Under the pieces are notes generated by a model. It saw only the letters and a list, made by a program, of their open reading frames with translations, was not told the origin of the DNA and did no database searches. From Naegleria gruberi (Eukaryota), in assembly GCA_000004985.1 (NCBI GenBank), contig GG738874.1: DNA of 64,000 nt; one strand, given 5' to 3'. Within the stretch, counting starts at the first letter, position 1, and every line of letters begins with the position of its first letter. Made by a program: the position numbers and the translations under genes. Positions 1 to 62,747 of this stretch are shown here, piece by piece.

Positions 1-1
1 C

Positions 2-1339: not shown

Positions 1340-1434
1340 ACTATCAATCTAAACATTCTAGTATATAAAACATAATAAAACATATAACAATTAAATATAT
1401 ATAAAAACACATATTTAAATAATAATTTATTATA

Positions 1435-19270: not shown

Positions 19271-20255
19271 TTAAATTTTATCCAAACAAGTTCTGCTTTC
19301 ATTAAATGTAAAGTCAACCAATGATATTAATACAATTACAAATATTTCATCTCGTATTTTTGTTGCATCTTCTCCAAATAATTTCAATTTCAAAGAATCA
19401 ACCTCTTTGGTATTTGTGTTGAGTTTGTTATAAGAAGAGGTTAGTAATGATGCATTCGAGTTCACTTTCAAATTCCAAGAAGCAAATCCATCTCGAATTG
19501 ATTATTAAGAAAATGATATAAAATTGAATTAACTTACTTTCATCCTCTCTGGAATCAAATGAAAAGTTATTTGATCCAATGTTAAATTTACCATCACGTG
19601 TATAAAATCTTGGATAGGCATCCTCGTCTTCTTGAACATCCCAAGTAGAATATTCAACTTTTTGATAAACATGTTTGGAAATTAATTCACAAACTTCCTC
19701 TCCACATTCGAATAAAAAGTATTCATTCAATAAACGTTTCCATAATGATCTAATACCATCAGTTTTGGTAATTGCACTAGTTTTCAGTTCAACTACTCTT
19801 TTTGAGTTCTTAATATTACCTTCTACCTTTTTGGTCAACCATTTCTCAAATTTATATTCTTCAACCTCATTATCTTTTAGTTTATCAGCATCATAACTTG
19901 TACCAAGATCAAATGCCTTTGTAATTTGAGTGATCAAATCACCTTTCTTTTTTTTTACTTTGTTATTGGAGGAGTATTCATCAAATTTTCTCTTATTTAC
20001 TTTTAACTCTTTTTCATTTGGTTTTTGAAAGGCTTGTTGTTTCTTGAGAGCTTTCATTCTTGTACAATTAATATTTCCTAATTTTCTAATATCGGAAGAT
20101 ACTCTCAAGGAAATGACCAATGGATTTGATTCAAGTAATTCTTCCCTAATCACTTTACAACATGATGAAAAATTAATGACATCCCTATTTGATGAAGACA
20201 TAAAAAACACAATCTGATCCAAGACTTCGCTAGGAATATTTTCAAATTGATTCAT
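19271..20255 (-). CDS. hypothetical protein with F-box-like N-terminus; two exons (19538..20255 and 19271..19491; 46-nt intron GTAAGT..AG)
   Basis: ATG at 20253-20255. N-terminal IPSEVLDQIVFFMSS is F-box-like. ORF 19428..20255 runs into a GTAAGT donor after ...SFDSREDE. The acceptor cgag|ATGGATTTG restores frame into track ORF 19271..19471. No recognisable catalytic domain. Confidence 0.4.
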
Positions 20256-20412
20256 TTTTTCTAAGATTTAAAAAACAATGCAGCATTACAACGTACTTAC
20301 AACGTGAACTTTGAGAAACTTCTAGTATTTGGTGGATAATTTAGTTTTTAAAAGATTTTACAAGTTCATCCTTGTTCATCCTTGCTTAAATGTGTATTTT
20401 ACACGTCCGACG

Positions 20413-22062
20413 ATGCAAGATGTCAATTCTCCAACTTTAAAAAAAAACATCAACAACACAATAGCAATTCTAATGTCAAAACAACAACAACAACAACAAC
20501 AACATGACAATACTTTAACTACTGCCACTAATCATCAAATTCAACAAAATGTTAATAATTTACCAATGGAAATATTGAGTGAAATTCAAAGTTATATTCA
20601 TGATGAATGGTTAAATTTTAGACTTGTTTGTAAATATTGGTCAATTATATTTTGTGAATATTTAAATATTAAATTAAATATTAAAGATTGTAATAATATT
20701 ATAGATTTATGTAATAGTAATATTTTATTACAAACTAATGAACTTTGTATTAATAATGTTCCAAAAAAAGTAATAGAAGCTATTTATTCTAATAATCAAT
20801 TATTTAAAAATATTAAAAAATTAACTTTTTATGGAAATATTAATTTAAATAGTATTGAAAAATTATTTTTAAAATCAAATTCATTTATTTATAATTTAAA
20901 TAGTTTATATATACAATCAAATGATATTACTAAATTAATGAAAATTTATAAAAAAGGAATACAAATAGCAAATAAAAATAAAAATAAAAAAAGTATTGGA
21001 TTATTTAATTATTTAATTTATTTAAATAATAATATAAATTATGAATATTTAAATAAATCATTAGAAGTAAATAATATTGAAGCAATTGAATATATGATAA
21101 AAAATTCTGAAAATAACTTTGAATGGTTATTAAAAGGTTCTAAATTAGGAAATTTAAAAATACAACTTGATTTGGCGTTTTATTATTATAATACTAGTCA
21201 ACATTTACTTGCTTTGGAATTATTTGAAAAAATATTTTATAATTTAAAATATGTTGAAAAAAATAATAATGAAATTAATTTTGATTTTTCATTCTATTTA
21301 GGTGAATATTACTATTATGGAAATTATGGAATTGAAAAAGATTATAAAAAATCAAATTACTATTTTTTACATGGTGATATTAATGATCCAATAACTCAAG
21401 AATTTATTGCAGAGAGTTATACCTATTTACAAGATTATAAAAATTCCTTTAAATGGCATTTAAAATCATCTGAAAATGAAAGTGAACATTCATCATTTAC
21501 AATTTCATATTTATATTGTAGTGGAATTGTTACATGTCCTAATATGGAAGAGTCTATTAAACATTTGATTAAATCACCTAATTACTCAGTCACCATACTT
21601 CAATTTTTAAATTATTTTAAATTATTAAATCATTTAGAAAATTTAGATGAAATTTTACAAATTATTAATAATGTAAATTTGAATAATGATGAAATTTCAT
21701 ATGACAATGATGAAGAATATGAAAACAATTTAAAATTTGATTTAAATGAAAATTCAAATGAAAATGAAATTCTGGAAATGGTAAAATCGAATGGATGGTC
21801 ATGTAATTCATGCAACAAATCATTTAATGGATTTTATTATTCAACAATGAATGGTTTTACATTTGATTTATGTATGGATTGTTATTCAATGGAAATTATA
21901 GAAAAATTTAAACATGAGTTAAATAATAGAATTTTATTTAAAACACATATTTTAACAAATTATATTCCACTTTTGGAATATTGTAAAAAATGTAATAATA
22001 TTAATAATTTAAAACTTGATAATATTATTAATCAATTAAAAGAATGTAAATCAATTCATTAA
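20413..22062 (+). CDS. F-box-like / Sel1-repeat protein with conserved C-terminal Cys-rich module
   Basis: First ATG at 20413 (track start 20329 is TTG). poly-Q, then F-box-like NLPMEILSEIQSYIHDEW. Sel1-like repeats (YYYGNYGIEKDYKKSNYYF...). C-terminal CNSCNKSFNGFYYSTMNGFTFDLCMDCY...RILFKTHILTNYIPLLEYCKKC shared with the gene at 53800..55494. Confidence 0.6.
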   Translation: MQDVNSPTLKKNINNTIAILMSKQQQQQQQHDNTLTTATNHQIQQNVNNLPMEILSEIQSYIHDEWLNFRLVCKYWSIIFCEYLNIKLNIKDCNNIIDLCNSNILLQTNELCINNVPKKVIEAIYSNNQLFKNIKKLTFYGNINLNSIEKLFLKSNSFIYNLNSLYIQSNDITKLMKIYKKGIQIANKNKNKKSIGLFNYLIYLNNNINYEYLNKSLEVNNIEAIEYMIKNSENNFEWLLKGSKLGNLKIQLDLAFYYYNTSQHLLALELFEKIFYNLKYVEKNNNEINFDFSFYLGEYYYYGNYGIEKDYKKSNYYFLHGDINDPITQEFIAESYTYLQDYKNSFKWHLKSSENESEHSSFTISYLYCSGIVTCPNMEESIKHLIKSPNYSVTILQFLNYFKLLNHLENLDEILQIINNVNLNNDEISYDNDEEYENNLKFDLNENSNENEILEMVKSNGWSCNSCNKSFNGFYYSTMNGFTFDLCMDCYSMEIIEKFKHELNNRILFKTHILTNYIPLLEYCKKCNNINNLKLDNIINQLKECKSIH

Positions 22063-32731: not shown

Positions 32732-35700
32732 ATGGAGGAAACACAACAAACACCTCAGCCAGAAGAAGAATCACGAACACAATCATCAAATATTGAGGAA
32801 GAAATTTCAACATCAGTCAATGAAGTTGTAAATTCTCAACCATCTGATGAGGCCTCAACAGCACTTCAACAAACTGAAGAACATCAAGATATTTCCAGTA
32901 AGGAACAACATGATGATGTTGATCACCAAGAAAACAACAATGAGAAGCCTCAAGAAAATGATACCTTAGTAGTTGAAGAAAATCCAGAAAATCATATGGA
33001 AGAAGAATACACCAGTGTTGGTCATTCTGTCAAAACAACCAATGATGAGAAGGAGGCTATTAGTGAAGAGATTTTAGAAACAACAAATAACGAGTTAATA
33101 TCTATTTCCCAAGCCTTGAATTACACTGCCGAAGGATTACATGAAAGTCATGAATACATTAACACTCTTACAGAACAAATTGAGGCAAAGAATAATGAAA
33201 TCCAGAAAGTAATGGAGGTATTAGAGGAACACAAATCAATTATTACTCAAAAGGATGACGAAATCTCAACAATTACTCAAGAATCCGAAAATACTAAAAA
33301 GTTATTGGGGCAGACAACATCTCAGATGAATACAATTTCCGAGAATTTGGCCAATGCTTTGGAGGAACTTTTAGAATCAGATCTCAAGTTGAAGGGGATT
33401 ACTAAGGAACTAACAGTCTCAAAGGAAGAAATTGAAAATTTGTCCAAAAGCATTTCAGAGAAAGAATCATTGATCGAAGAGCTCAACAATAATCTTGGTT
33501 CAGCAAAGGCAGAATTGGAAGCATCTAAGGAAGATGTTTCTTTAAAGAGTGCTATTATTGAACAATTAACTAGTGAGATTAATGTTGGAAAGGAAGCAAT
33601 TCAAAAATTAGAAGACAATGTCAATGAAAAGAGTCAAGAGGTTGATTCTTTAAGGTTGATTATTGAAGAAAAAGCTTCACTTAATGAACTATTGAAACAA
33701 CAAGTCGATGAAACAAAACAATCTCTTGAAGAAACTTTGAATAATTTAACAAAAGCAAAGGAAGAAATAGAAAGCGTAGAAAATTCTCTTAAGGAAACAA
33801 CTCAAAAGTTAGAAGAAACAAATACGCAACTCACATCATTGTCAAGCCAAGTTGAGCAAGACAAAGATGAGTTAAAACAGATTAGTGAAGAGCTTGAAAC
33901 TGTGAAAGAAAACTGTAGTCAAAAATCAGCTGAACTGGAGAAGACCATTTCAGAACTGAAAGAAACATCTGACAATTTGGAGGATCAAAAGAAAGTGCTT
34001 GAAGAAAAAACTCAAGAATTAACTTCCACAACAGAAGAGCTCTCTAAAACGAAATCATTATTGGAAAGCACTACCACTGAATTCAACGAAAAATTAAAAA
34101 TTGCTTCCGATAGTTTGCAAATAACTACCCAAGAACTCGAAGAAACCAAAGGAAAATTAGAACAAACCCAACAACAATTGGATAAAATGAGCTCTGAATT
34201 GGAAATTAAGACACAGGATCTTTCTCAGGCAATTGAAACTTTAGATCTCACAAATATCGAATTAAGTGAACTCAAAGAAACCATGTCAAATACTACCATT
34301 GAACTTGATAAAACGAAGGAGATTTTAAAGTCCACAAACGAAGAACTTTTGGCAACAAAAGAATCCCTTGAAACAACCAGTGAAGAATTGTCTACAACTA
34401 AAGACACGCTTGCAACAACAACCGAGGAGTTTTCTTTTACAATGGAACAATTAGATAATACTAAAAAAGAACTCTCTGAAACAACCACCAAATTAGAGGA
34501 AACATCTGCTGAATTGGTTTCTATTAAGGAGGATCTTTCCGACACAAGACAAAAGCTTGAATCTACTTGCGGTTTATTGTCTGAAACTCAAACCAAATTA
34601 GAAGAATCTAACAAAAATCTTGAAGATGCAAACTGTACAATCAAAACTACTGAAGATGAATTATCTAGTGTTAAGGGTGAACTTGAATCCACAGCAAAAA
34701 ATCTGGTTGACACCAAGCAAGAGCTTTCAGAAACTATTTCTGACTTGCAACAGACAAAAGAGAGTTTGTCAGAAACTAAGGAAACACTTGCAAGCACTGA
34801 GGATAACCTGCACAAAATAGAGGACGAGTTATCTCAATCAAGAACAACTTTATCAGAGACATCAGAAGAACTTATTGAGACAAAAAATAGGTTGACTGCC
34901 ACCTTGGATGAGCTTTCCACTACCAAAGAAGACCTTAGAAACACAGAAAAAGATCTTTCCCAAAGAACAAGCGATTTGGGAATGACTTCAATGGAATTAA
35001 TAAGCACAAAGGAAGAGCTTACAGAAACAAAACAAACACTCTCTCAAACTTCTGAAAATTTAGAAACTACAAAAACAACATTGGAAGAAACATCTTCCGA
35101 TCTTGAGAAAACAAAAGAAGAACTTGCAAAGAAAACTGAAAATCTGGAAGACACTACCAAAAATCTAGAGAGTACAAAAAGAACATTGGAGGAAACTTGC
35201 AAAGAACTTGAAGCAACAAACAACACACTTCTTAGTACTAGTGAAGAGCTAACTACAACAAAGACTGACCTCGAAAACACAAGGCAAACCCTAGTTGAGA
35301 CATGCTCTAACTTGGAAAACACTAAAGCAAAACTTCAAGATACTGAAATTACACTCACCGAAACAATCAATGTTCTTAATTCAACAAAGCAAGAGTTAGA
35401 TAGTACAAACGAAGAACTCTCAAATACCAAGAATTCTTTGAAAGCCACTGAGCTTGAATTGAGTGATACAAAGGAAAATCTTTCTAAAACTGGTGAAGAA
35501 CTTGTTCAAACTAAATTAACTCTTTCCTCAACTTCTGATGAATTAAGCAACACGAAACAAGCTTTATCTGCAACTACGGAAGATCTCAACAGTACAAGAG
35601 ACGTTCTGAAAAGTACTGAGAATGAGCTTTCTCAAAGAACAAGCGATTTGGGAATGACATCTATGGAATTAATAAGCACAAAGGAAGAGCTTACAGAGAC

Positions 35701-38170
35701 AAAACAAACACTCTCTCAAACCCGCGATACATTAAGATCCACTCAACAGTATTTAGAAGATACTAACACTTCACTGAACTCTGCAAATGAAACCATACGA
35801 ATTACAACAAAAGAACTTGAGAAAACTCAATCCGAACTCGATTTGACAAAGAAAAATCTTGACGTCACAACAACAGAATTACAAGACACAAAGGAGGCAT
35901 TTACCACAACCAAGTCAGATTTAGAGTCAAAACTTTCAGAAACCACTAACCAATTGAATAATACAACTGCCACTCTGAACGAAACTCAAACAACTCTTAC
36001 TCTAACTCAACAAACTCTTTCGTCAATCGAATCAGATTTAAATGGTACTAGAGAAACCCTAAACAAAACAAAGAATAATTTAGATGGCATGACTGACTCT
36101 TACGAATCAACTTTATCTGCTCTCAATCATACAAAACAAGTCTTACAAGAAACTGAAGAAAAGCTATCCGAAACTTGTAAAACTCTTGATGAACGAGTAT
36201 ATGAATTGAGTACTACTTCACAGATTCTTAAAAATACAAGAGACCTTCTTCAAAACACTGAAGAAAAGTTGAAGAGTAAAACTGAGGAATGGGAACTTTT
36301 GTTGGTGGTAAGATCTGAATTGGAGAAGGAACTTGAAGAAATGACCAACAAAAACACCAAAAATGAAGAAGAAATCAAAGAGTTACTCCACATCAAATCT
36401 GATCTCACTGCTGAACGAAATAAGTTGATTGAGAATCTCAACCAAACTACCTCTAATCTGAAGCAAACAGAACACACTCTTGAAGAAACAACTCAAAAAC
36501 TTAACATCACTGAAAATGTTCTTCAAGAAACCTCTATCACCCTTAAAGCAACAACAGAGGATCTGAATTGTAAAAATGAAAGATTGGAGCAAGCAGAAAA
36601 TTCTTTGGAGAGTTTGAGACAAAAATATGACACCTCTGTTAAAGAGTTGAAGGCAGCTCACATTACCATAGATCAAGCAAATGTTTTGGTATTGGAACAA
36701 CAAGAATCCCTCGCAGAAAGGCAGAGAAGCATTGATAAACTTGAGAATACAGTTGTTGAGCTTAATAAGATCATTAGTGAAAGGGATGAAACCATAAAAC
36801 AAAGAGATTCAACAATTAAGAGCCTTGAACAAGTCGTTGCAGAAAAAATAGGAATAATCAACGATAGAGATCAAGAAATAAGTGAAAGAATCGACAACCA
36901 CAACCAATTGTTCGCCGAGAAAACTAATCTTGATAGTGAAATAGCAAACTTGAAGTCTGAATATCAAAAACTGGATGAAATTTGTAATTTTAAGAAAGAA
37001 CAGCTTATCAAATCCCAAGTTATCATTACTAGTTGGATTGAAGAGAATAATGTCAAAGCCAAAACTATCGCACAACTTTACGAAATAGTCAATAAGAAGG
37101 ATTCAGAGATTGAAAATCTTTTCACTTCGGGCAATAAGATCATGGAAGGACTTAGTCTAGAAATTAAACAACTTGAAATCAAATTACAAGAAGCAAACAC
37201 TAATATACAATCATTAACTGATAAGGATAATGAAAATATGGATCAAATTCGTCAACTTTGGGAAAAGATTAAAGACAGAGACAATATAATCGAGGAGCAA
37301 ACAAGAGAAAGCATTAGAGTTGAGGAAGAAAAGAGATCCTCAGATGGTAAATTCAGAAAAGAGATTGAAAGACTCACAATGGTTGAAATGGATCTTGAAT
37401 ATGCTGTAAAGGAACGTGAAGATTCTTTGTTTGATATCAAGAAAGAAAATGAAAATCTTACACAACAACACATTGCCATCGATTTAGAAAACAAACAACT
37501 CAAACAACAATTCCAAATCAAACAAAAGAAAATTGAAGAGCTTAACCTTAAATTGGTTATGGAACAAAAAAGAAATGAAAGAAATGAGAAGGCCAAGTCA
37601 AGCTTTGTTAGAAATATAAGAGATAGAACTCTTGGTGCAACAACAGATGTAGATCAAAAGAATTTGTTGGTCATTCAAGATCTTGGAAAGAAGTATGACG
37701 ACCTCGCTCAAAAATATGAATTGCTTGTTACTGAAAGAAATGATTTAAAGAAATTGTGTAAATCTTTACAATATGCACTTGACAAGAAAGATGGTGAAGA
37801 TGGCAAGAGAATTCAAACATTAGAAAGCAAGTTGCAACAAGAACAAACAGAAAAGAATATCTTCAGAAACGAAAAGAAGGAAATTGAAAAAAAGATGGAA
37901 ACCATTTCAACAGAAAATAAGCAACTCAATTTGAACATGAATAGACTTCACAATACCACCACTCAAATGTTGAGAAAACAAGAAAAGATTACAACTTATT
38001 TGGACAACAATAACGAAGTAGTTTCTTCGTTTGCACTTTCACCAAGAGTTAAACCAACAACAAATATTCCATCAAATGTAGGAGCCAATTCTTTAGTTAG
38101 TCCAAGAAACTTAACTGGTGTCTCTAAACCATCAACACCAAGAATTGCTTCAACCAGATCAACCAAATAA
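32732..38170 (+). CDS. giant (1812 aa) coiled-coil protein with degenerate (T/S)xEEL(S/T)xTKxxL repeats and an S/T/P-rich C-terminal tail
   Basis: Intronless 5.4-kb ORF. Acidic N-terminus. About 1000 aa of 14-residue-type periodic repeats (TSEELSTTKDTLATTTEE..., TKQELSETISDLQQTKESL...). An internal near-identical duplication (LSQRTSDLGMTSMELISTKEELTETKQTLSQT at about 34960 and 35630). The tail PRVKPTTNIPSNVGANSLVSPRNLTGVSKPSTPRIASTRSTK. Confidence 0.6.
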   Translation: MEETQQTPQPEEESRTQSSNIEEEISTSVNEVVNSQPSDEASTALQQTEEHQDISSKEQHDDVDHQENNNEKPQENDTLVVEENPENHMEEEYTSVGHSVKTTNDEKEAISEEILETTNNELISISQALNYTAEGLHESHEYINTLTEQIEAKNNEIQKVMEVLEEHKSIITQKDDEISTITQESENTKKLLGQTTSQMNTISENLANALEELLESDLKLKGITKELTVSKEEIENLSKSISEKESLIEELNNNLGSAKAELEASKEDVSLKSAIIEQLTSEINVGKEAIQKLEDNVNEKSQEVDSLRLIIEEKASLNELLKQQVDETKQSLEETLNNLTKAKEEIESVENSLKETTQKLEETNTQLTSLSSQVEQDKDELKQISEELETVKENCSQKSAELEKTISELKETSDNLEDQKKVLEEKTQELTSTTEELSKTKSLLESTTTEFNEKLKIASDSLQITTQELEETKGKLEQTQQQLDKMSSELEIKTQDLSQAIETLDLTNIELSELKETMSNTTIELDKTKEILKSTNEELLATKESLETTSEELSTTKDTLATTTEEFSFTMEQLDNTKKELSETTTKLEETSAELVSIKEDLSDTRQKLESTCGLLSETQTKLEESNKNLEDANCTIKTTEDELSSVKGELESTAKNLVDTKQELSETISDLQQTKESLSETKETLASTEDNLHKIEDELSQSRTTLSETSEELIETKNRLTATLDELSTTKEDLRNTEKDLSQRTSDLGMTSMELISTKEELTETKQTLSQTSENLETTKTTLEETSSDLEKTKEELAKKTENLEDTTKNLESTKRTLEETCKELEATNNTLLSTSEELTTTKTDLENTRQTLVETCSNLENTKAKLQDTEITLTETINVLNSTKQELDSTNEELSNTKNSLKATELELSDTKENLSKTGEELVQTKLTLSSTSDELSNTKQALSATTEDLNSTRDVLKSTENELSQRTSDLGMTSMELISTKEELTETKQTLSQTRDTLRSTQQYLEDTNTSLNSANETIRITTKELEKTQSELDLTKKNLDVTTTELQDTKEAFTTTKSDLESKLSETTNQLNNTTATLNETQTTLTLTQQTLSSIESDLNGTRETLNKTKNNLDGMTDSYESTLSALNHTKQVLQETEEKLSETCKTLDERVYELSTTSQILKNTRDLLQNTEEKLKSKTEEWELLLVVRSELEKELEEMTNKNTKNEEEIKELLHIKSDLTAERNKLIENLNQTTSNLKQTEHTLEETTQKLNITENVLQETSITLKATTEDLNCKNERLEQAENSLESLRQKYDTSVKELKAAHITIDQANVLVLEQQESLAERQRSIDKLENTVVELNKIISERDETIKQRDSTIKSLEQVVAEKIGIINDRDQEISERIDNHNQLFAEKTNLDSEIANLKSEYQKLDEICNFKKEQLIKSQVIITSWIEENNVKAKTIAQLYEIVNKKDSEIENLFTSGNKIMEGLSLEIKQLEIKLQEANTNIQSLTDKDNENMDQIRQLWEKIKDRDNIIEEQTRESIRVEEEKRSSDGKFRKEIERLTMVEMDLEYAVKEREDSLFDIKKENENLTQQHIAIDLENKQLKQQFQIKQKKIEELNLKLVMEQKRNERNEKAKSSFVRNIRDRTLGATTDVDQKNLLVIQDLGKKYDDLAQKYELLVTERNDLKKLCKSLQYALDKKDGEDGKRIQTLESKLQQEQTEKNIFRNEKKEIEKKMETISTENKQLNLNMNRLHNTTTQMLRKQEKITTYLDNNNEVVSSFALSPRVKPTTNIPSNVGANSLVSPRNLTGVSKPSTPRIASTRSTK

Positions 38171-39492: not shown

Positions 39493-41106
39493 TTATTTCC
39501 AATTATCAAAATTGAATTGATCAGAACTGTTAGAATTATTGGAAGTTTCTTTTCTGATTGGAATTATTGATGAAGGTATAATAGAAGAGGAATTGGAAGT
39601 ACTCTTTAAATTTAAATATTTTCCAACTTTGGATTGAGTGGCGGTGGTGGCAGGATTTTGTTCAATTCCAGACGGATTAGAAAACCAATTACCAAACTTT
39701 TCCTTATCTTCATTAGAAACTACTTGTGTTCTTTCTTCCTTATCCTTTTGTCTCTTTTCATCCTCAGTGAATGGATTGTAAAATATAGAGATATTTTCAA
39801 TTTGTACATCTTCCAATGGTTTATCTTCATCATCTACTGGAATATTTTCAATCTTTTGAAGTAATTTTAATCCACCGACTAATTTTCCAAATACTGTATG
39901 CTTATTATCCAAATGAGGAGTTTCCTTGAATGTAATGAAAAATTGGCTAGAATTAGTATTTGGTCCCTTATTAGCCATACTTAGAGTTCCAATTGTGTCA
40001 TGACGAAGTTTTGGTGAGATTTCATCCTTAAACTCACCTCCCCAAATACTCTTCCCTCCTCTACCTGTTCCAGTTGGATCACCTCCTTGAATCATAAATC
40101 CTTTAATGAGTCTATGAAATTTAACTCCATTGTAATATCCTCTTGAACACAAACTCAGGAAATTATCACATGTTTGTGGACAAAGATATGGATAAAGTTC
40201 AACATTTAAATCGCCTAGGTTTGTGTGTAATGATACAAATGATTTCTTATTTTTAAACTCTTTCCTTATTCTATCATATTGTTCCAATTTCTGTTTCCAA
40301 TATTGTTCAGTAATTTTCTCAGTTTCATGACTTTTAGTTCTCACATTCATAACAGAAGAAGTTAATGAAGATGATTTAGTGTCACTACTCAAAACTCCAA
40401 AACTTTGTTCTCCACTTCTCAAAGAAGAGCTTGTAAGTGCCACTTCTTCTTCTCCACTTTCAATTTTCTTTTTCTTTCTCTTTTCCATTTCTTCCAAAAC
40501 TTTTGAAGTTGCACTATTTAAATTAATCTTTTCACTAGCTCTTTCCAAAACAGAATCATCTTCATTCTTTCTTTTTTTATCTCGTTGTTCAATTTCATGT
40601 TGTATTGTTTTAATATCTCTTGGATGTAATGGATCTTGTAATGAAATAATATCTTCCTTTGTAAATTCTGTATGATCCAATAAATCATACATAATTTCTC
40701 CTTCCTTTAAATTTATTCTTTCAATTGCACTATATGCATAGACATTTCCTGTTTTTGCAATACAAACAATATGTGACTGATCGGTAAATATTTTGCGTGA
40801 GACTGGACAGTATGGTTTTCCTTCATCATTGGTTGCAATTTTTAATCTAATAATATCTTTAAAATCCAAAGGATTACCAGTGATTGGATGTATTTTATGT
40901 TTTCTAATCCATGGCATTATATTTAATATATCAAACATGTAACCATCTCTTGTTGTAACTGCTTCTCCTTTAATAGGTTGAAGAGAGAAGGCACAATGAT
41001 TAAAAGCAAGGGAAACTCCTTGTTTTTGTTCTACTTGTGTCTTGTTACGTGATGATAATTCCGATGCTCTGATGAATAAGTGACCATTCTTTTTAGAGTG
41101 AGACAT
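39493..41106 (-). CDS. U-box + cyclophilin peptidyl-prolyl cis-trans isomerase-like 2 (PPIL2/Cyp60-type)
   Basis: 537-aa ORF. N-terminal U-box region (CAFSLQPIKGEAVTTRDGYMFDILNIMPWI...). C-terminal cyclophilin domain FHRLIKGFMIQGGDPTGTGRGGKSIWGGEFKDE...NSSQFFITF...HTVFGKLV. Confidence 0.8.
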   Translation of the reverse strand: MSHSKKNGHLFIRASELSSRNKTQVEQKQGVSLAFNHCAFSLQPIKGEAVTTRDGYMFDILNIMPWIRKHKIHPITGNPLDFKDIIRLKIATNDEGKPYCPVSRKIFTDQSHIVCIAKTGNVYAYSAIERINLKEGEIMYDLLDHTEFTKEDIISLQDPLHPRDIKTIQHEIEQRDKKRKNEDDSVLERASEKINLNSATSKVLEEMEKRKKKKIESGEEEVALTSSSLRSGEQSFGVLSSDTKSSSLTSSVMNVRTKSHETEKITEQYWKQKLEQYDRIRKEFKNKKSFVSLHTNLGDLNVELYPYLCPQTCDNFLSLCSRGYYNGVKFHRLIKGFMIQGGDPTGTGRGGKSIWGGEFKDEISPKLRHDTIGTLSMANKGPNTNSSQFFITFKETPHLDNKHTVFGKLVGGLKLLQKIENIPVDDEDKPLEDVQIENISIFYNPFTEDEKRQKDKEERTQVVSNEDKEKFGNWFSNPSGIEQNPATTATQSKVGKYLNLKSTSNSSSIIPSSIIPIRKETSNNSNSSDQFNFDNWK

Positions 41107-55920: not shown

Positions 55921-57011
55921 ATGTCTTCCTCAACAAATCAATCAAGCTACTCCACTACCGAGTGTATTTCAGAATCGGCAATTACCTTTGAATGCAACTA
56001 TTTATTTGACTCATGTGATGAGGAATGTCAATATGGTCCATCATTATCACATCATCAGAATTCAATACCGAATGTTGCTTCAATTCTATCATTGGATGAT
56101 TTGACCAATCTTTCAATTCAACATACTTCAAGAAACAGCTATGAAGATTTGTCAATTCTCAGTGATTCCGAAGGTGATGATGAAGATTGGATGAATCTCT
56201 TGTTTCATGATGGTTTGAGAATGCTTAATCACAATTCAAGGGAATGGATTATTGAACAGGTTAATTTTGATCATGATTGTAAGATTGTTAATGGAAAGAG
56301 GGATCTACCTCTTGAAAAGACTAATATTTCAATGAATATTAAGAATTTGGGTGAATTTATTGATATGAAGGAATGTGATCAATTTGGAACCTTGAATAAG
56401 TCAACATGTAAATTTGTCAAATCATCTGGTAATTATCACTATTATAGACCATCTCAATCATTAAGGAAAGCAAACTTAGAAAGACGTTGCTTGACTTGTT
56501 TTCATCGGAAAACTTTGGAATTACCTCCATGATGATTTCTCCTCCTTTGATGTTAGCTCACTGGTATGCTGTTTACCAAAAGAAAAGCATTGAACTGAAC
56601 AGTGCCAAATATTTGGAGTCTGAATGGATCTTCAATAATAGAGAACAATGTTTGGAATCAGTTGAATTGTTGCAAAGATATCCCAAGTCAATTCAAAAGA
56701 ACTTGAAGAGATATTCACAGGAAGAATTGGATCTTGTTTTCCCTAAAAAGATTGTTTGGAGAAGAATTTCATTCAGTACTATTCAGAAACATGGATTTAA
56801 CCTGCAAAGAGTTGAATCAAAAAGTGCTTCAGGCTCTCCTACCTATTCTATCAAGTGTGGATCTGAAACACTGCTTGAATTCATATCCTCATTAGAGTTT
56901 TGTTCCAATATTGTCAAGTTACTGACTCTTGTGTCTGTATCGGTCTTTTCTAGAACAATGGATCTTCCAGTTGACAATCTATGTGATCAATTGAAATTGA
57001 CTTTGAGATGA
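55921..57011 (+). CDS. hypothetical protein; two overlapping ORFs (55921..56532 and 56487..57011) imply a frameshift, an unrecognised intron or a pseudogene
   Basis: Same-strand ORFs overlap by 46 nt in different frames. No recognised domain. ATG at 55921. Confidence 0.3.
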
Positions 57012-57287: not shown

Positions 57288-57357
57288 TCGGGTGTGGTAT
57301 GTGGTAGCATTCCAGATTGTCACTCTGGCGACCCGGGTTCAATTCCCGGCACTCGAG
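57288..57357 (+). tRNA. tRNA-Asp (anticodon GTC)
   Basis: Acceptor TCGGGTG/CACTCGA (one G:U). Anticodon arm CCAGA-TTGTCAC-TCTGG. T-arm CCGGG-TTCAATT-CCCGG. Discriminator G. Short D-arm as in other tRNA-Asp. Confidence 0.8.
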
Positions 57358-57554: not shown

Positions 57555-58763
57555 TCAAGATCTGTTTTGCCATTTAGAAGATTCAATTCCCATTTCTACA
57601 GCATATTTCATGAAACGAAGAACATGATTTTTCTGGATGAGGGACAGAATTCCACTTTCATCATCAATGAATTTCTTTCTATTTTCATCACTACGATTAA
57701 TAATTGGAAAGACAACGCCATTCTTAAATGTTTGGGTAATTAACTGTTCAATATTTGTAAACTCTGGACTTGTTGCAAGGTTGGCAAATAAGTGCCCATT
57801 TTCTGCCACAGTTGTGAATTTGGAGTCCTTCCACAATAAGGCAACACCATCAAATGCCAAATAACGATCTGACAAGTTGTCAAATTTGGTCAACACAAAC
57901 ATGTAATTAATCTTGTGATCTTCAACGCACATCTTAGTATACTTGGCAAACAATGGCTTCAATTCTTCAAGTGTCTTGATGTGAGTCACGTCAATTGTAA
58001 AAATTACCAATTGAATTCGAAATTCCTCTTCGTATTGATTTGGAACAGTATTACATCCTTCAAATGGACCACTATTTGGTGGAATTAATCCTCTCAACAA
58101 GTGTTGGAAATAATTCTTTGCAGGTTCCCTTTCTACAACTCCTTTTTGTTTAGTTTCGTAAAATCCTGGCACATTCCACAAACGAATCTCAGCTCCATTT
58201 CTTATAGGAATAACACCAACTTCAGAAGATTTTGTAACAGAGTGATCAGAATCAGTAGCTTCAAAGAAACGTCCCGATTGAAATGTAATATTATCACATC
58301 CCAAAGCTTGTGCAATATTATTAAGGAGTCCGCTCTTTCCATCTCCTAAAGCTCCGAAACAAACAACATTTAAGGATTTGGTTTTCTTGCTTTCAAAGTG
58401 AATGGCCATCTTGTGGTGGATTTCTTCAAATAAGGTGATGGTAAGATCTGGATCTTTGAGGTTGAAACGTGGAATTTTGTGTTTCATTTCGAATCTGCCA
58501 GTCCAATTAGTTTTGGTGTTTTTGTTATTGGAAACTGTGACCCAGGCATCAAGAGAAAGATTGACATTCTGATCAGAAATTAAAACAAGTTGTGGTTTTT
58601 TGGTTGGATTCAATGTCAACAATGTTGTTTTTCCAGTTTCGTAATTGTAAACCGAAATGTTTTTGATTTCTTTTTCGAGACCTTTCAATTGAAAATGGTG
58701 CAAGTCGAGGAAGTTTGGAGTTTCTCCCGCTTCGTTTGGAATTGGAGAACTTGAGTTACCCAT
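57555..58763 (-). CDS. P-loop GTPase, IRG/IIGP-like (TRAFAC class), with N-terminal myristoylation motif MGNSSS
   Basis: 402-aa ORF. About 120-aa N-terminal region, then G1 VVCFGALGDGKSGLLNNIAQALG, switch-I Thr (DHSVTKSSE), G3-like LWNVPGF, G4 LTKFD. Mouse Irga6 is likewise N-myristoylated. Family assignment is by motif spacing, not by search. Confidence 0.5.
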   Translation of the reverse strand: MGNSSSPIPNEAGETPNFLDLHHFQLKGLEKEIKNISVYNYETGKTTLLTLNPTKKPQLVLISDQNVNLSLDAWVTVSNNKNTKTNWTGRFEMKHKIPRFNLKDPDLTITLFEEIHHKMAIHFESKKTKSLNVVCFGALGDGKSGLLNNIAQALGCDNITFQSGRFFEATDSDHSVTKSSEVGVIPIRNGAEIRLWNVPGFYETKQKGVVEREPAKNYFQHLLRGLIPPNSGPFEGCNTVPNQYEEEFRIQLVIFTIDVTHIKTLEELKPLFAKYTKMCVEDHKINYMFVLTKFDNLSDRYLAFDGVALLWKDSKFTTVAENGHLFANLATSPEFTNIEQLITQTFKNGVVFPIINRSDENRKKFIDDESGILSLIQKNHVLRFMKYAVEMGIESSKWQNRS

Positions 58764-58966
58764 AGTTTTGTTTTTTTATTATTGTTTAACTAAGCTGAAT
58801 GTTTCGAATATTAATTATTAGCAGGAAGATGTACAATTCACGTTTCAAAATCACGTTTTGAAAAGATCTAAAATGAAACATGACAGATACGAAACGTGAT
58901 CAGAACCTAATCCATTATAAAATTATTGAATCCAAATTCATTACAATAATCCAATCTTGAAAAAAA

Positions 58967-59908
58967 ATGGGAAACTTGTCTTCCAACAATATTGAATTCT
59001 ATTCACCAGAAGAACACTATAAAAAAATTACCAAAGAAATTCCGAATAATGCTTTCCATCTATTAGAACGATATTTATCTCAAAAAGATAAACCAATTCG
59101 TCTCCATAGAATTTTCGATTATCCTAGCGATTCTACAACTTTCACTATTCGATACTTTACTTACTTGTCAAGAGCTCAAGAATCAACAGTTTCAGAAACT
59201 ATTGAACCAGGATTGAAATATATTTACTTTTATCTTCATGGATCTGACATGTCAGGTATTCTTGCCAAATTGCCAAATAATGTTTGTGCCATTTCGTTTA
59301 ATGCAGATGGAATTAAGGATATTCATAATGAAGATTTATTATCTTTTAAGAGTGAATCAAGTACGTTGGTTATCTGTCTATTGAAATATGTATTGATTCT
59401 TTTATTTTCTTTACTTTTGGTAGTGTTGTCAATGTTTTATTTGCCAAATCAAGGCAATAAAAAACCACAACAAATTGGAAGCAAATATATTGAGATAACA
59501 AGTCAAAACTATAGTAATGGGAAAGGCACAATTCAATTGACTTTTGATATGAAATACTGTCGTACTGTTGAACAACAACTTCTAAAACTTGGAGTTACAC
59601 TGAACATTCCTCCAGAAGATAGTATAAGATATTCAGACAAAAAGCTTGTGAGTCAGGATCAAGACAAGATAACAAGCACAAACATTGTTTCTCCAACATT
59701 AAATGAAAAAATTGAAGAAAGTCATGATACTGAGTTAGTTCAAGCTAAACAGGATGAAAGTCAAGCTCCAATAGAATCTACTTATGATATTCAGAACAGT
59801 AGACAAGAAAATCCTAACTCACAAGATTCAGCTATTTCCAACACCAATATGCAACAAGAATTGAGTGGTGTAGCGTTTGAAAATGAAAATATTGATAAGA
59901 TAGAATAA
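58967..59908 (+). CDS. hypothetical membrane protein with N-terminal myristoylation motif MGNLSS
   Basis: 313-aa ORF, divergently oriented 203 bp from the GTPase gene. One TM helix (LVICLLKYVLILLFSLLLVVLSMFYL). Acidic/polar C-terminal tail. Confidence 0.4.
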   Translation: MGNLSSNNIEFYSPEEHYKKITKEIPNNAFHLLERYLSQKDKPIRLHRIFDYPSDSTTFTIRYFTYLSRAQESTVSETIEPGLKYIYFYLHGSDMSGILAKLPNNVCAISFNADGIKDIHNEDLLSFKSESSTLVICLLKYVLILLFSLLLVVLSMFYLPNQGNKKPQQIGSKYIEITSQNYSNGKGTIQLTFDMKYCRTVEQQLLKLGVTLNIPPEDSIRYSDKKLVSQDQDKITSTNIVSPTLNEKIEESHDTELVQAKQDESQAPIESTYDIQNSRQENPNSQDSAISNTNMQQELSGVAFENENIDKIE

Positions 59909-59909
59909 A

Positions 59910-60987
59910 TTATTTTTTGCTTGTTATTATAATTTTACATAATCTTGCCAAGAGTGCTGTAAGTTGAAGAGGTGTATCAACACCATCACTTATCCTTAAA
60001 TGACAATCACCAATCTCTTTGATAAATTGTAATTGAGCATATTCAGGCATTTGGACAGCTCCACTTCTAACAACTTTGGAAAGAGTAGAAATTACATCTT
60101 GAGAACTGTATCCCTCACCCATTAATTTAGTAAGCTCTTTTTGAGAACTCATTAAATCACCTTGAATACATGATCCAATAATTGTTTGAATAGCAACTGG
60201 ATGAGGTTGATCACAAACTTTGAAAACATTAGTGGCATTTACAATTCCAAAACCTTGATAGGTAGCTTGTAAACTATTAATTGCATTTCTCATGTCACCG
60301 TCTGAAGTATAGAGAATTGATTCCAAACCATCCTCTGTTTTTTGGACATGTTCTAATTCACAAATAACAATTAATCTGGTCAAGAGTTCAGCATCTGTCA
60401 GCCTCTTATATCTGACGAGAGCACATCTTGATTGAATTGGTTCAATAATTTTAGAGCTATCATTGCAAGCAAGAGCAAATCTAGTTGTTGAAGAATAAAT
60501 TTCCATAATACGTCTCATAGCTTGTTGAGCAGCTGATGTCATTGAATCAGCTTCATCCAAAATAACTATTTTGTGTCTATTTGGTGGAAGATTAACTTTC
60601 TTTTGAGCAAATTGTTTAATTTTGTTTCTCACAACATCAAGTGTTCTTTCATCAGAAGCGTTCAATTCTAAAACAGCTTCTTTATATACTTCCTTTCCCA
60701 ATAATGATCTAGCTAAACACATTATACTCGTTGTTTTACCAGTACCTATTATAAATCAATGGTGTGATCATCACAACTCCTATTTAATAAATTAAAATTA
60801 AAAACCTACCTGGTGGTCCAGACAAAATCAGATTCGGCATATTACCTTCCTCAGCAATAACTCTAAGTCTCATGACAGCCTCTTCGTTTCCGACAATATC
60901 ATCCATATCAATGGGACGATATCTTTCAACCCAAGGTCTGTCCATTTCTGTTGGCACACCTGAAGAAGAAGAATTTGATGCAATCAT
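59910..60987 (-). CDS. RFC2: replication factor C small subunit RFC2 (40-kDa subunit; AAA+ clamp loader); exons 60810..60987 and 59910..60745 (64-nt intron GTAGGT..TAG)
   Basis: Exon 1 is ...[44 protein letters not shown]. Splicing continues [16 protein letters not shown]...[23 protein letters not shown]...[54 protein letters not shown]... (Walker A split by the intron, DEAD box, SRC motif). Near-collinear with human RFC2. Confidence 0.85.
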
Positions 60988-61016
60988 TTTTTTTGAATTT
61001 AAAAAAGTGGAATATT

Positions 61017-61025
61017 TTTGGCGGC
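61017..61025 (+). promoter_or_regulatory. E2F-like TTTGGCGGC motif in the 56-bp divergent promoter shared by RFC2 (-) and the 61044 gene (+)
   Basis: ttttggcggcaag. RFC subunits are canonical E2F targets in other eukaryotes. Confidence 0.35.
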
Positions 61026-61043
61026 AAGTTTAAAAAAAATAAG

Positions 61044-62747
61044 ATGCTTGCTTCCAACTTGATGAAAAGCCTGACGAAGGAGAAGGGCAATCTTTCCGAT
61101 CATTCATCATCACACAAAGGACAGCATCATCAGCAAGATAGTCATCATGTTGATCATGATGGACCACTTCAATTTAAATTTCAAAATACAACAAATAATT
61201 GGGATGAATCTCCGAGTCTAAATAATAGTCTTCCTTCATCACCAATAATTAGATCTCCTGTAAAACCAAAAAGAAGTAGAGCAAATCAACAACATGACAA
61301 TAATCAGCATTCGAGTAGTAGTGGCAATTTATTGGATAATTCACCTTTTCAAAATTTATCAGTTGTTCAAAACTTTTCATTTCCTGATTTCTTACATAGA
61401 CAATCCATATTTTGGACAATATTAGTATTAACTTTAGGATATTTATTGGGTAGATGGGAGTTGTCATTATCTTGGTTTTTAGTTTTTACTATTGTAGTTT
61501 ATTCACTTTCTTCTAGAATTGCTAGAGATTCTTCAAGAACAATTAACGATTTATTGCGAGTTAAAAAATTAAAAGAGTGGAAGCAGTGGAGAGAGAATCA
61601 TCTTCCAAAGTATCTCACTTCGAATAATAGTGGGAAATTATTTACAAACACAACTGGAGACCAAACTGAAAACACAAAAAGAGATGCAACTCTTGCATGT
61701 GTAAATATTATAATGGATCAATTGTGGAGAGGATTCAATTCTGAATTTATTGTAAAAATGGCGAATGATTGGCTTAAAGAAAATCCAATAGCTTCCAACT
61801 TTGATATTCAAGTTTCATTTCTTGATATAGATAACGATAATCCCCCTTTCTTTACAATGATACACTGCTCAGAAAACACACCGAAGAAAACTGTAATTGA
61901 TGGCTGTTTGGAATACCATGGAGAGTTATTACTCCAATGGTTTGTAAAATTGTTGATTCCTATCCAATTTTTATTGAAAGATGTTTCTGCCAAGGTTAAA
62001 TCTAGAATTAGCATCGAATATTCTGACAATTTGGAGGAATTTGGAAGAACTATATCCAAGGTTGATTTTTGTTTTATGGAGTATCCTGAATTTAATGTAT
62101 CAGTTCAAATGTTCAATTCTTTAGATTTAACTGGATCCATTCCATCTCTTCAAAATCAATTGAAGCTAGGGTTTGAAAAAGCTCTTTTGAACTTTGTCTA
62201 TCCAAAATTTATTACCGTCTATCAATTTGGTGAAGGAAACTCTCCAGGATTAAATTTGGAAATTGATAAGATTGTTGTGGAAGGATTGGAGGATGAGATA
62301 AAGAGTAATTTATTTAACATTAATCAATTACTCAAAGCAATTAACAAATCATCAGGAGAAAGTAAGGAAAGTATCAAAACTGAAGTTTGTAACAATATTC
62401 TAACTCTCCTTTTCCAAGCAAGAGAACCAGGTAAAATTCCAATAGGAATGACAGAAACCATTAGAAATGGATTTCAAATTCTCAACATGTTGGCTTTTGA
62501 AGAAACTGAAAATGGTGAAGCCAATGAAAAGATTATGGAATTATTGTTAAAGACTGAAAACTTGATATTCATTGCTGATGTTGTTAGGAAATGTACTCTT
62601 GCCGATGAACTCGTAATGAACATATTATTCAAAGTTAAGAATACTTCACTTAAAAACCAAATCAATAAGAGGTTCCAAGAATTGGAATTGGCAGATATTC
62701 TTTTCCTAGTAGTTGGCAGAAATGATAGACCAAAATCCAACAATTAA
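61044..62747 (+). CDS. membrane-anchored protein with putative SMP (synaptotagmin-like mitochondrial lipid-binding) domain
   Basis: First ATG 61044 (track start 60951 is non-ATG). His/Gln-rich N-terminus. Two TM helices (IFWTILVLTLGYLLG; LSWFLVFTIVVYSL), followed by ATLACVNIIMDQLWRGFNSEFIVKMANDWLKEN, resembling the start of SMP domains (E..EWLN.ll...W). Weak call. Confidence 0.35.
   Translation: MLASNLMKSLTKEKGNLSDHSSSHKGQHHQQDSHHVDHDGPLQFKFQNTTNNWDESPSLNNSLPSSPIIRSPVKPKRSRANQQHDNNQHSSSSGNLLDNSPFQNLSVVQNFSFPDFLHRQSIFWTILVLTLGYLLGRWELSLSWFLVFTIVVYSLSSRIARDSSRTINDLLRVKKLKEWKQWRENHLPKYLTSNNSGKLFTNTTGDQTENTKRDATLACVNIIMDQLWRGFNSEFIVKMANDWLKENPIASNFDIQVSFLDIDNDNPPFFTMIHCSENTPKKTVIDGCLEYHGELLLQWFVKLLIPIQFLLKDVSAKVKSRISIEYSDNLEEFGRTISKVDFCFMEYPEFNVSVQMFNSLDLTGSIPSLQNQLKLGFEKALLNFVYPKFITVYQFGEGNSPGLNLEIDKIVVEGLEDEIKSNLFNINQLLKAINKSSGESKESIKTEVCNNILTLLFQAREPGKIPIGMTETIRNGFQILNMLAFEETENGEANEKIMELLLKTENLIFIADVVRKCTLADELVMNILFKVKNTSLKNQINKRFQELELADILFLVVGRNDRPKSNN

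What the first reader, a model, noticed from the sequence alone, without database searches (positions are those of the whole stretch)
57555..59908. Myristoylated IRG-like GTPase paired head-to-head with a second myristoylated membrane protein
The minus-strand gene encodes a GTPase (GxxGxGKS, switch-I T, WNVPG, TKFD) behind a 120-aa N-terminal domain. Its G-motif spacing and N-terminal MGNSSS recall immunity-related GTPases (IRG/IIGP; mouse Irga6 is myristoylated), a family tied to cell-autonomous defence and rare outside vertebrates. Its neighbour lies 203 bp away on the other strand, so the two presumably share a bidirectional promoter. That gene also begins MGN-L-SS (myristoylation consensus MGxxxS) and has a TM helix. 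Two acylated membrane-targeted proteins from one promoter suggests a co-regulated membrane-associated module, possibly defence- or trafficking-related.
Basis: partly seen in the sequence, partly recalled or inferred. Interest (0 to 1): 0.6.

Follow-up and report, generated by a model that had tools for sequence, protein, structure and literature searches.

The report
Orphan Naegleria GTPase and neighbour gene
Two adjacent, divergently transcribed Naegleria gruberi genes are real: one is a very divergent GTP-binding protein found almost nowhere else and belonging to no named family (IRG included), the other an unannotated orphan membrane protein. Nothing beyond their adjacency and a small repeated DNA motif between them shows that they work together.

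Summary
The window is Naegleria gruberi. The minus-strand ORF (57555-58763) is NAEGRDRAFT_58312, a 402-aa "hypothetical protein". The plus-strand ORF (58967-59908, 313 aa) lies 203 bp away and has no counterpart among the NCBI or UniProt proteins searched. Both ORFs, the MGN starts, the G motifs and the TM helix are present as described.

A 98%-identical environmental contig shows purifying selection on both genes. The first protein is a G-domain protein: G1 GALGDGKS, switch-I Thr and G4 TKFD sit in canonical order, and every top fold match is a GTPase. No Pfam, NCBIfam or PADLOC family reaches threshold. An exhaustive HMMER scan of 1.84 billion proteins found only a N. gruberi paralog fragment, one 25%-identical protist homolog, and a weak P-loop hit.

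IRG membership is not supported:
- The window protein has no IIGP profile match.
- The G1-G4 spacing is 48 aa longer than in Irgb6.
- No flanking helical domains are predicted.
- G3 is NxxG rather than DxxG in both full-length members.

Myristoylation is plausible for the neighbour and weaker for the GTPase, which has Pro after Ser6. Head-to-head spacing of about 200 bp is routine in this genome, and the homolog's locus lacks the neighbour. Three copies of TCACGTTT in the spacer are the only hint of shared regulation.

The parts
57555..58763 (-). CDS of the orphan GTPase (402 aa plus stop), equal to NAEGRDRAFT_58312
   Evidence: ORF. 100% identity to the NCBI N. gruberi hypothetical protein. 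dN/dS about 0.2 against L001 over the N-terminal 228 codons.
58389..58763 (-). N-terminal domain, aa 1-125. It starts MGNSSSP, has no family match, and appears beta-rich.
   Evidence: Coordinates. Pfam gives only sub-threshold noise (FBA_1, TTR-52). It aligns with the N-terminal region of homolog P0004, including the conserved block LxAW..NTK..W..FE..IP..DP. The AF2 model here is unusable, with pLDDT below 35.
57558..58388 (-). G domain, aa 126-402. Predicted topology is beta1-alpha1-beta2-beta3-alpha2-beta4-alpha3-beta5-alpha4-beta6-alpha5 with three insertions.
58332..58355 (-). G1 / P-loop GALGDGKS (aa 137-144)
   Evidence: Conserved as GQQGVGKS in P0004.
58227..58241 (-). Switch-I region SVTKS with candidate G2 Thr177
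   Evidence: VTK aligns with VTK of the IRG-like protein P0005 in BLASTP.
58164..58178 (-). G3 WNVPG (aa 196-200). Asn197 sits where the Mg-coordinating Asp normally is, and Phe201 where Ras has the catalytic Gln.
   Evidence: It aligns with INTFG of P0004, WDSPG of P0005 and IDTPG of septin Cdc10.
57879..57890 (-). G4 TKFD (aa 292-295), the guanine-specificity motif
   Evidence: TKFD in paralog P0003 and TRVD in P0004. Thr and Asp are invariant.
57690..57728 (-). Most conserved block of the family, FKNGVVFPIINRS (aa 346-358). It covers beta6 and a candidate G5 with invariant Ser358.
   Evidence: Invariant columns F346 K347 N348 V350 V351 F352 P353 S358 N361. Strand E350-353.
58764..58966 (.). 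203-bp divergent spacer, the presumed bidirectional promoter region
   Evidence: It shows 5.4% substitutions plus two 1-nt indels against L001, compared with about 1% in the flanking coding sequences.
58838..58845 (+). TCACGTTT copy 1
   Evidence: 7 copies in the window against 1.35 expected, three of them in this spacer. Unchanged in L001.
58851..58858 (+). TCACGTTT copy 2
   Evidence: Unchanged in L001.
58892..58899 (-). TCACGTTT copy 3, in inverted orientation
   Evidence: Unchanged in L001. Poisson P for three or more copies in 203 bp is 1e-8 to 2e-6.
58967..59908 (+). CDS of the orphan neighbour (313 aa plus stop). It starts MGNLSSN and has no counterpart among the NCBI/UniProt proteins searched.
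   Evidence: ORF. The only database relative is P0002, from an ENA metagenome. dN/dS about 0.07, P = 3e-4, with two in-frame indels in the acidic tail. No family hit in Pfam, NCBIfam or PADLOC.
59366..59443 (+). Predicted single TM helix LVICLLKYVLILLFSLLLVVLSMFYL (aa 134-159)
   Evidence: Kyte-Doolittle 19-residue window up to 2.92. Coordinates and flank charges (N side -2, C side +3).

Best explanation
These are two separate, lineage-restricted Naegleria genes that happen to share a short divergent spacer.

Gene 1 (NAEGRDRAFT_58312) is a founding member of a tiny, unclassified family of TRAFAC-type G proteins. It has an N-terminal domain of about 125 aa, apparently beta-rich, followed by an enlarged G domain.

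Shown:
- G1, switch-I Thr and the G4 [T][KR]xD motif are intact and conserved.
- The overall fold is a G domain.

Inferred:
- It binds a guanine nucleotide.
- Because the G3 Asp is Asn in both full-length members and the residue after G3 is Phe rather than a catalytic Gln, hydrolysis is probably slow. If it occurs, it probably depends on a partner or on dimerisation, as in septin, GIMAP, Toc, IRG and dynamin-type GTPases that lack the Ras Gln.
- The protein would then act as a nucleotide-dependent switch or assembly unit, with the N-terminal domain as targeting or effector module.
- The Gly2 start may carry myristate and hold it on a membrane. This is the weakest step.

Gene 2 is a genuine, apparently unannotated, single-pass membrane protein with no detectable relatives.

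The 203-bp spacer most likely serves as promoter for both genes and carries three copies of TCACGTTT, which may be a shared transcription-factor site. Functional coupling of the two proteins is not shown.
For: Identity and restriction:
- 100% match to the N. gruberi hypothetical protein.
- The exhaustive phmmer scan of 1.84 billion representatives gave only 4 hits at E <= 1e-3. They are the protein itself, a N. gruberi paralog fragment (NAEGRDRAFT_70565, 61% identical), one full-length 25%-identical metagenomic homolog, and a repeat-inflated P-loop hit.

G domain:
- The motifs are in canonical order.
- The secondary-structure order is that of a G domain.
- Foldseek top hits are GTPases.
- The best Pfam hit is MMR_HSR1 over G1-G3.

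NxxG conservation:
- WNVPG in the window protein and INTFG in P0004.
- These align with WDSPG and IDTPG of canonical GTPases.

Selection: dN/dS is 0.2 and 0.07, with the spacer about 5 times more diverged.

Ordinary arrangement: 4 of 10 head-to-head pairs are 278 bp apart or less.

Motif cluster: 3 of the window's 7 TCACGTTT copies sit centrally in the spacer, in both orientations, and are unchanged in L001.
Against: - No nucleotide-binding or hydrolysis data exist.
- Both AF2 models are low-confidence (pLDDT 37 and 48), so the fold matches are only indicative.
- The Asn in G3 could mean a non-hydrolysing or even non-binding pseudo-GTPase.
- Pro7 violates the PROSITE myristoylation pattern.
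- The homolog P0004 has Phe at position 6 and an in-frame ATG 12 codons upstream, so acylation is not a demonstrably conserved family feature.
- The absence of substitutions in the three motif copies is not significant by itself: about 1.5 changes would be expected in 24 nt.
- No expression data could be obtained.
Confidence: 0.55

Rival explanations
1. The GTPase is an IRG/IIGP-type immunity-related GTPase, myristoylated like Irga6. With the acylated neighbour it forms a co-regulated cell-autonomous defence or trafficking module.
For: - TKxD G4 and a GxxxxGKS P-loop are shared with IRGs, and the protein starts MG.
- Irgb6 is among the top three (non-significant) PDB profile hits, matching both the P-loop and the G4 region.
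- The only out-of-family protein found by the exhaustive scan, P0005, is itself IRG-like: Irgb10 E 5e-8 and IIGP 62 bits.
- P0005 aligns with the window protein over G1-G3 at 27% identity.
- The patchy, lineage-restricted distribution with a paralog is compatible with a fast-evolving defence gene.
- There is a motif cluster in the shared spacer.
Against: - The window protein has no IIGP profile hit at E <= 1, and P0004 is below cutoff with a P-loop-only match.
- The P0005 score is summed over four repeated P-loop segments.
- G1-G4 spacing is 155 aa against 107 in Irgb6.
- G3 is NxxG, not DLPG.
- No N- or C-terminal helical domains are predicted.
- There is no PADLOC hit.
- The neighbour is absent from the homolog's locus.
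- Only two gene copies are seen in N. gruberi, so there is no expansion.
Confidence: 0.07
2. The protein is a pseudo-GTPase. It is a G-domain scaffold that has lost Mg-dependent catalysis, and perhaps nucleotide binding, through the Asp-to-Asn change in G3. It serves a purely structural or adaptor role.
For: - Asn replaces the G3 Asp in both full-length family members.
- There is no catalytic Gln after G3.
- All family profiles score below threshold, showing strong divergence of the G domain.
Against: - G1 (GxxxxGKS), the switch-I Thr and the guanine-specificity G4 Asp remain conserved across 25%-identical homologs, which is hard to explain without nucleotide binding.
- Purifying selection is detectable.
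- From my own knowledge, functional GTPases without the G3 Asp exist. MglA, for example, has Thr there.
Confidence: 0.2
3. The pairing is pure coincidence. The two genes are regulated and function independently, and the shared MGN start and the TCACGTTT cluster have no joint meaning.
For: - Head-to-head gaps of 157-278 bp are common in the window.
- The two proteins share no similarity.
- The neighbour is absent next to the homolog in L003.
- If roughly 2% of eukaryotic proteins are N-myristoylation candidates (10.1101/2021.06.22.449375), several adjacent MG-consensus pairs are expected by chance in a genome of about 15,000 genes. This is my own estimate.
Against: - Only 3 of 35 long ORFs in the window start MG, and two of them are this pair.
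- Three copies of an 8-mer in 203 bp are far beyond chance, P between 1e-8 and 2e-6. They sit at the midpoint in both orientations.
Confidence: 0.35

Closest known systems
IRG / IIGP immunity-related GTPases (Pfam PF05049; Irga6, Irgb6, Irgb10)
   Same: - GxxxxGKS P-loop and TKxD G4.
- A hydrophobic residue instead of the catalytic Gln after G3.
- An MG start, as in myristoylated Irga6.
- Irgb6 is among the best, though non-significant, PDB sequence hits.
   Different: - No IIGP profile match.
- G3 is NVPG rather than DLPG.
- G1-G4 is 48 aa longer.
- The N-terminal domain is not helical, and there is no C-terminal helical domain of about 160 aa.
- Absent from the top structural matches.
Septin / paraseptin group of TRAFAC GTPases (septins PF00735, AIG1/GIMAP PF04548, Toc33/34)
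   Same: - Best, though still non-significant, sequence hit is septin Cdc10, aligned from the P-loop through xxPGF.
- Enlarged G domain with no catalytic Gln.
   Different: - All profile scores are below cutoff: Septin 20.4 against 26.2 and AIG1 12.8 against 27, for P0004 only.
- G4 is TKFD, not the septin AKAD.
- No septin unique element and no AIG1 conserved box is recognisable.
- Asn replaces the G3 Asp.
MMR_HSR1 / Era-like generic GTPase domain (PF01926)
   Same: Top Pfam hit for the window protein. It covers G1 to beyond G3, aa 133-258.
   Different: - 18.1 bits is below the 21.9 cutoff.
- G4 is TKxD rather than NKxD.
- There is an insertion of about 40 aa between alpha2 and beta4, and one of about 40 aa after G4.
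- The N-terminal domain is unrelated.
Dynamin-superfamily large GTPases (mitofusin Fzo1, atlastin, GBP1, RNF112)
   Different: - TM-scores are only 0.34-0.43, from a low-confidence model.
- Dynamin_N reaches E 0.026 on the P-loop of P0004 only.
- No stalk, middle or helical-bundle domain.
- The protein is only 402 aa.
GTPases lacking the G3 aspartate (e.g. MglA, with Thr in place of Asp) and pseudo-GTPases
   Same: The Mg-coordinating Asp of DxxG is replaced, here by Asn, while the other G motifs are kept.
   Different: No sequence relationship was tested or expected. MglA is a small bacterial Ras-like protein. The comparison concerns mechanism only and rests on my own knowledge.

Membership tests
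IRG / IIGP (PF05049) | Significant match to the IIGP family profile | tested here: not met
   The window protein has no IIGP hit at E <= 1. Homolog P0004 scores 18.2 bits against a cutoff of 24, over aa 108-137 (P-loop) only.
IRG / IIGP (PF05049) | G domain flanked by an N-terminal helical region and a large C-terminal helical domain | tested here: not met
   Predicted secondary structure has strands and coil in aa 1-105 and only about 45 aa of helix after beta6. The models are low-confidence, so this is indicative only. There is also too little sequence after G4, 107 aa including alpha4, beta6 and alpha5.
IRG / IIGP (PF05049) | Canonical G motifs GxxxxG(K/M)S, DxxG and TKxD with IRG-like spacing | tested here: not met
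   G1 and G4 are present. G3 is NVPG. G1-to-G4 is 155 aa against 107 in Irgb6.
Septin (PF00735) | Profile match above the gathering score, AKAD-type G4 and the septin unique element | tested here: not met
   The window protein has no hit. P0004 scores 20.4 bits against 26.2. G4 is TKFD. The best PDB hit, Cdc10, has E 0.026 and is not significant.
AIG1 / GIMAP (PF04548) | Profile match above the gathering score | tested here: not met
   P0004 scores 12.8 bits against 27. The window protein has no hit.
MMR_HSR1 (PF01926) | Profile match above the gathering score | tested here: not met
   Both the window protein and P0004 score 18.1 bits against a cutoff of 21.9. This is the closest miss.
TRAFAC-class P-loop GTPase (superclass) | Walker A GxxxxGK[ST], switch-I Thr and [NT]KxD, in that order, on a G-domain fold | tested here: met
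TRAFAC-class P-loop GTPase (superclass) | Walker B / G3 hhhhDxxG with Asp | tested here: not met
   The sequence is RLWNVPG. Asn197 aligns with the Asp of WDSPG and IDTPG. P0004 also has Asn.
N-myristoylated proteins (NMT substrates) | Met-Gly start matching G-{EDRKHPFYW}-x(2)-[STAGCN]-{P} (PROSITE PS00008, from my own knowledge) | tested here: inconclusive
   The neighbour MGNLSSN matches. The GTPase MGNSSSP fails only the final {P} position. Homolog P0004, MGNKPF, fails at position 6 and has an upstream in-frame ATG. Dedicated NMT predictors were not available.
N-myristoylated proteins (NMT substrates) | Myristate actually attached to Gly2 | not testable with these tools
   This needs metabolic labelling with a myristate analogue, or an in vitro NMT assay.
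Bidirectional-promoter gene pair / conserved module | Arrangement conserved in other genomes, or correlated expression | tested here: not met
   The homolog's locus L003 has no relative of the neighbour (tblastn E > 1; ORFs). L001 keeps the arrangement but is 98% identical and so uninformative. No expression data could be obtained.

The most novel reading that the evidence does not exclude
The two genes form a Naegleria-specific, co-transcribed membrane module. A Gly2-acylated G protein from a previously undescribed family (N-terminal beta domain, Asn in place of the Mg-coordinating G3 Asp) would act on or with the orphan single-pass protein. Both would be driven from a shared TCACGTTT-bearing bidirectional promoter. 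Functionally this would be an amoebal analogue of the IRG, GIMAP or septin-type dimerising GTPases used in cell-autonomous defence or membrane remodelling.
Probability: 0.07. Interest if true: 0.6.

Novelty: new variant of a known kind. Interest (0 to 1): 0.3.

Why it matters
If the biochemistry holds, this would be a natural G-protein family that keeps the P-loop, switch-I Thr and guanine-specificity motif but has Asn instead of the Mg-coordinating Asp. That would make it a useful test case for how much of the canonical GTPase machinery is dispensable.

It is also an example of a lineage-restricted G protein that current family libraries do not recognise. The N. gruberi entry is only a "hypothetical protein" with no domain.

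Practically, the analysis adds a probable missing gene model (58967-59908) to N. gruberi and a candidate promoter element. It does not extend IRG-type immunity GTPases to Heterolobosea.

Tried and rejected
- Word-indexed homology searches with the GTPase, the neighbour and a family alignment returned only the proteins themselves, P0002 and P0004.
- Metagenome and viral contig scans for relatives of either protein found nothing.
- PADLOC gave no hit for the window GTPase or the neighbour, only a weak AAA-ATPase (PtuA) hit for P0004. NCBIfam gave nothing above its cutoffs.
- The G-domain-only model was better, though still low-confidence, and could not discriminate between GTPase families.
- The afdb50 library was not available.
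- Looking up the locus of paralog NAEGRDRAFT_70565, to see whether it also has a paired neighbour, failed.
- Literature and supplement searches for the gene ID or expression data found nothing.
- A literature search for a rule on Pro at position 7 of NMT substrates found nothing explicit.
- The two proteins share no domain.
- There is no inverted duplication around the two ATGs.
- TCACGTTT or CACGTTT does not occur upstream of the homolog in L003.
- I rejected the P0005 hit (E 7e-7) as evidence of IRG membership. The score is summed over four repeated P-loop segments, and the pairwise match covers only G1-G3.
Full report
**Source and observation.** The window is AT-rich (about 31% GC). The minus-strand ORF 57555-58763 is 100% identical to NAEGRDRAFT_58312, a 402-aa "hypothetical protein" of Naegleria gruberi with no precomputed Pfam domain. 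The plus-strand ORF 58967-59908 (313 aa) starts 203 bp from it, head-to-head.
- MGNSSSP at the N terminus.
- GALGDGKS at aa 137-144.
- SVTKS at aa 175-179.
- WNVPG at aa 196-200.
- TKFD at aa 292-295.
- MGNLSSN at the start of the neighbour, and a very hydrophobic segment at its aa 134-159.

**Are both genes real?** The neighbour has no counterpart among the NCBI or UniProt proteins searched. Its only database relative is P0002, a gene call on a 3-kb ENA metagenome contig (L001). L001 is collinear with window 58079-61079 at 98.3% identity, so it comes from a close natural variant of N. gruberi.
- The spacer has 11 substitutions and two 1-nt indels in 203 bp. The two coding regions have about 1% substitutions.
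- The neighbour has 7 synonymous and 2 nonsynonymous changes (dN/dS about 0.07, P = 3e-4). Its two indels (-6 and +9 nt) are in frame and lie in its acidic, polar tail.
- The 228 covered codons of the GTPase have 4 synonymous and 3 nonsynonymous changes (dN/dS about 0.2, P = 0.04).
- Codon 2 of the neighbour carries a synonymous change, so its Gly2 is kept. The GTPase's MGNSSSP is unchanged in L001.

Both are therefore genuine, constrained protein-coding genes. The neighbour appears to be a missing gene model.

**What the GTPase is.** No family library recognises it.
- The best Pfam hit is MMR_HSR1 at 18.1 bits (cutoff 21.9), covering G1 to beyond G3. IIGP, AIG1, septin and dynamin models give nothing at E <= 1.
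- PADLOC gave no hit for the window protein, and NCBIfam nothing above its cutoffs.
- PDB sequence searches give no significant match.

An exhaustive phmmer scan of 1.84 billion representative proteins found only four proteins at E <= 1e-3:
- the query itself;
- P0003, which is NAEGRDRAFT_70565, a 123-aa annotated fragment of a N. gruberi paralog, 61% identical over the C-terminal 114 aa;
- P0004, a full-length 401-aa homolog at 25% identity from metagenome assemblies of an unidentified eukaryote (GC 37%);
- P0005, discussed below.

No hit came from any other Naegleria species or from the protist transcriptome collections held in the database. The family is therefore extremely narrow.

The alignment of the three members conserves:
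- the P-loop;
- Asn in G3 (WNVPG / INTFG);
- G4 ([T][KR]xD);
- a strong block FKNxVVFP...S..N around beta6;
- in the N-terminal domain, LxAW..NTK..W..FE..IP..DP.

**The IRG question.**
- The G4 is TKxD and the protein starts MG.
- Irgb6 is among the three best PDB profile hits, at E 0.07.
- P0005, the only out-of-family hit, is itself IRG-like, with Irgb10 at E 5e-8 and IIGP at 62 bits.

However, the P0005 score is the sum of four repeated P-loop segments, and the pairwise match to its one complete G domain covers only G1-G3 at 27% identity. Septin Cdc10 (0.026), Rab18 (0.09) and Toc33 (0.2) score as well as Irgb6. The distance from G1 to G4 is 155 aa against 107 in Irgb6. No flanking helical domains are predicted, and IRGs are absent from the structural top lists. 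Membership in IIGP is therefore not supported. The protein sits, unassigned, among the enlarged TRAFAC G domains that have a hydrophobic residue instead of the Ras catalytic Gln.

The G3 motif has Asn where the Mg-coordinating Asp belongs, in both full-length members despite only 25% identity. The P-loop Lys/Ser, switch-I Thr and G4 Asp are conserved. I infer from this that the protein binds a guanine nucleotide but hydrolyses it slowly or only with help, through dimerisation or a partner. A non-hydrolysing pseudo-GTPase is the main alternative.

**Myristoylation.** Only 3 of 35 long ATG-initiated ORFs in the window start MG, and two of them are this pair.
- The neighbour fits the PROSITE pattern.
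- The GTPase has Pro directly after Ser6, which that pattern excludes.
- The homolog P0004 has Phe at position 6 and an in-frame ATG 12 codons upstream.
- Literature held here says G-myristoylation covers about 2% of a proteome and tolerates departures from the optimal S6K7 (10.1101/2021.06.22.449375). It gives no rule on Pro7.
- The neighbour's TM flanks (N side net -2, C side +3) suggest by the positive-inside rule that the C-terminal side is cytosolic. That would conflict with a cytosolic acylated N terminus. The 133-aa N-terminal domain argues the other way.

Acylation thus remains a reasonable but untested idea.

**Is it a module?** Head-to-head pairs with gaps of 157-278 bp make up 4 of 10 such pairs in the window, and convergent genes abut within 1-21 bp in 4 of 9 cases. 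The arrangement is what this compact genome does everywhere. The two proteins share no similarity. In the 13-kb contig carrying the P0004 homolog there is no relative of the neighbour. The paralog's locus could not be retrieved and no expression data were found.

One positive observation is new. The spacer contains three copies of TCACGTTT (58838, 58851, and 58892 inverted), out of seven in the whole window where 1.35 are expected. They are centred on the spacer midpoint, and all are unchanged in L001 although the spacer is 5% diverged. Poisson P for the cluster is 1e-8 to 2e-6. This is a credible shared cis-element. It says nothing about the proteins acting together.

**Verdict.** The locus holds a real, previously unclassified, lineage-restricted G protein with a non-canonical NxxG G3 and a novel N-terminal domain. 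Next to it is a probable unannotated orphan membrane-protein gene. It is not an IRG. The "acylated defence module" remains speculation. Interest is modest.

Noticed in passing
window 58838-58845(+), 58851-58858(+), 58892-58899(-): Three copies of the 8-mer TCACGTTT cluster at the midpoint of the 203-bp spacer. The window holds 7 copies against 1.35 expected. All three are unchanged in the 98%-identical contig L001. This is a candidate transcription-factor site. Other copies are at 38793(+), 41328(+) (222 bp upstream of ORF 39493-41106(-)), 38449(-) and 11221(-).
   Followed up: partly
window 58967-59908(+): The 313-codon ORF has no counterpart among the NCBI or UniProt proteins searched. Its only relative is a metagenome gene call, yet it is under clear purifying selection. 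It is probably a gene missed by the reference annotation. Its stop codon lies 1 bp from the stop codon of the convergent RFC gene (59910), so the 3' UTRs must overlap the opposite coding sequence.
   Followed up: yes
window 59910-60987(-): Replication factor C small-subunit gene (Rep_fac_C, AAA). A 64-nt GT-AG intron at 60746-60809 splits the Walker A motif GPPG|TGKTT. In L001 the intron carries indels that are not multiples of three, whereas exon 1 carries an in-frame +3 indel.
   Followed up: partly
window 57288-57357(+) and 18526-18597(+): tRNA-Asp(GTC) lies 198 bp beyond the 3' end of the GTPase gene, on the opposite strand. A tRNA-Met(CAT) lies further upstream in the window.
   Followed up: no
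window 55921-56532(+) and 56529-57011(+): Two consecutive ORFs of 203 and 160 aa, on the same strand but in different frames, overlap by 4 nt. They have no family hits. They may be one gene interrupted by a short intron or a frameshift.
   Followed up: no
window 1-2000 and 20001-22000: Two stretches are far more AT-rich than the rest of the window (GC 15% and 21%, against about 31%).
   Followed up: no
L003 3460-4173(-) and 2071-3312(+): In the metagenomic contig carrying the 25%-identical GTPase homolog, the convergent downstream gene also starts MG (MGQNQP). The homolog itself reads MFEVCHWNYKQK-MGNKPF, so its MGN start depends on which ATG is used. The second ATG has the A-rich context seen at both window genes.
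   Followed up: partly
P0005 (ENA contig, 869 aa): The only out-of-family hit is an IRG-like protein. Its gene call contains four near-identical repeats of a P-loop-bearing segment of about 165 aa, followed by one complete G domain. It looks like tandem exon or gene fragments read through by a prokaryote-style gene caller.
   Followed up: partly
window 32732-38170(+): A very long ORF (1812 aa) lies in a region of strong AT skew (0.23-0.33). I did not examine it.
   Followed up: no
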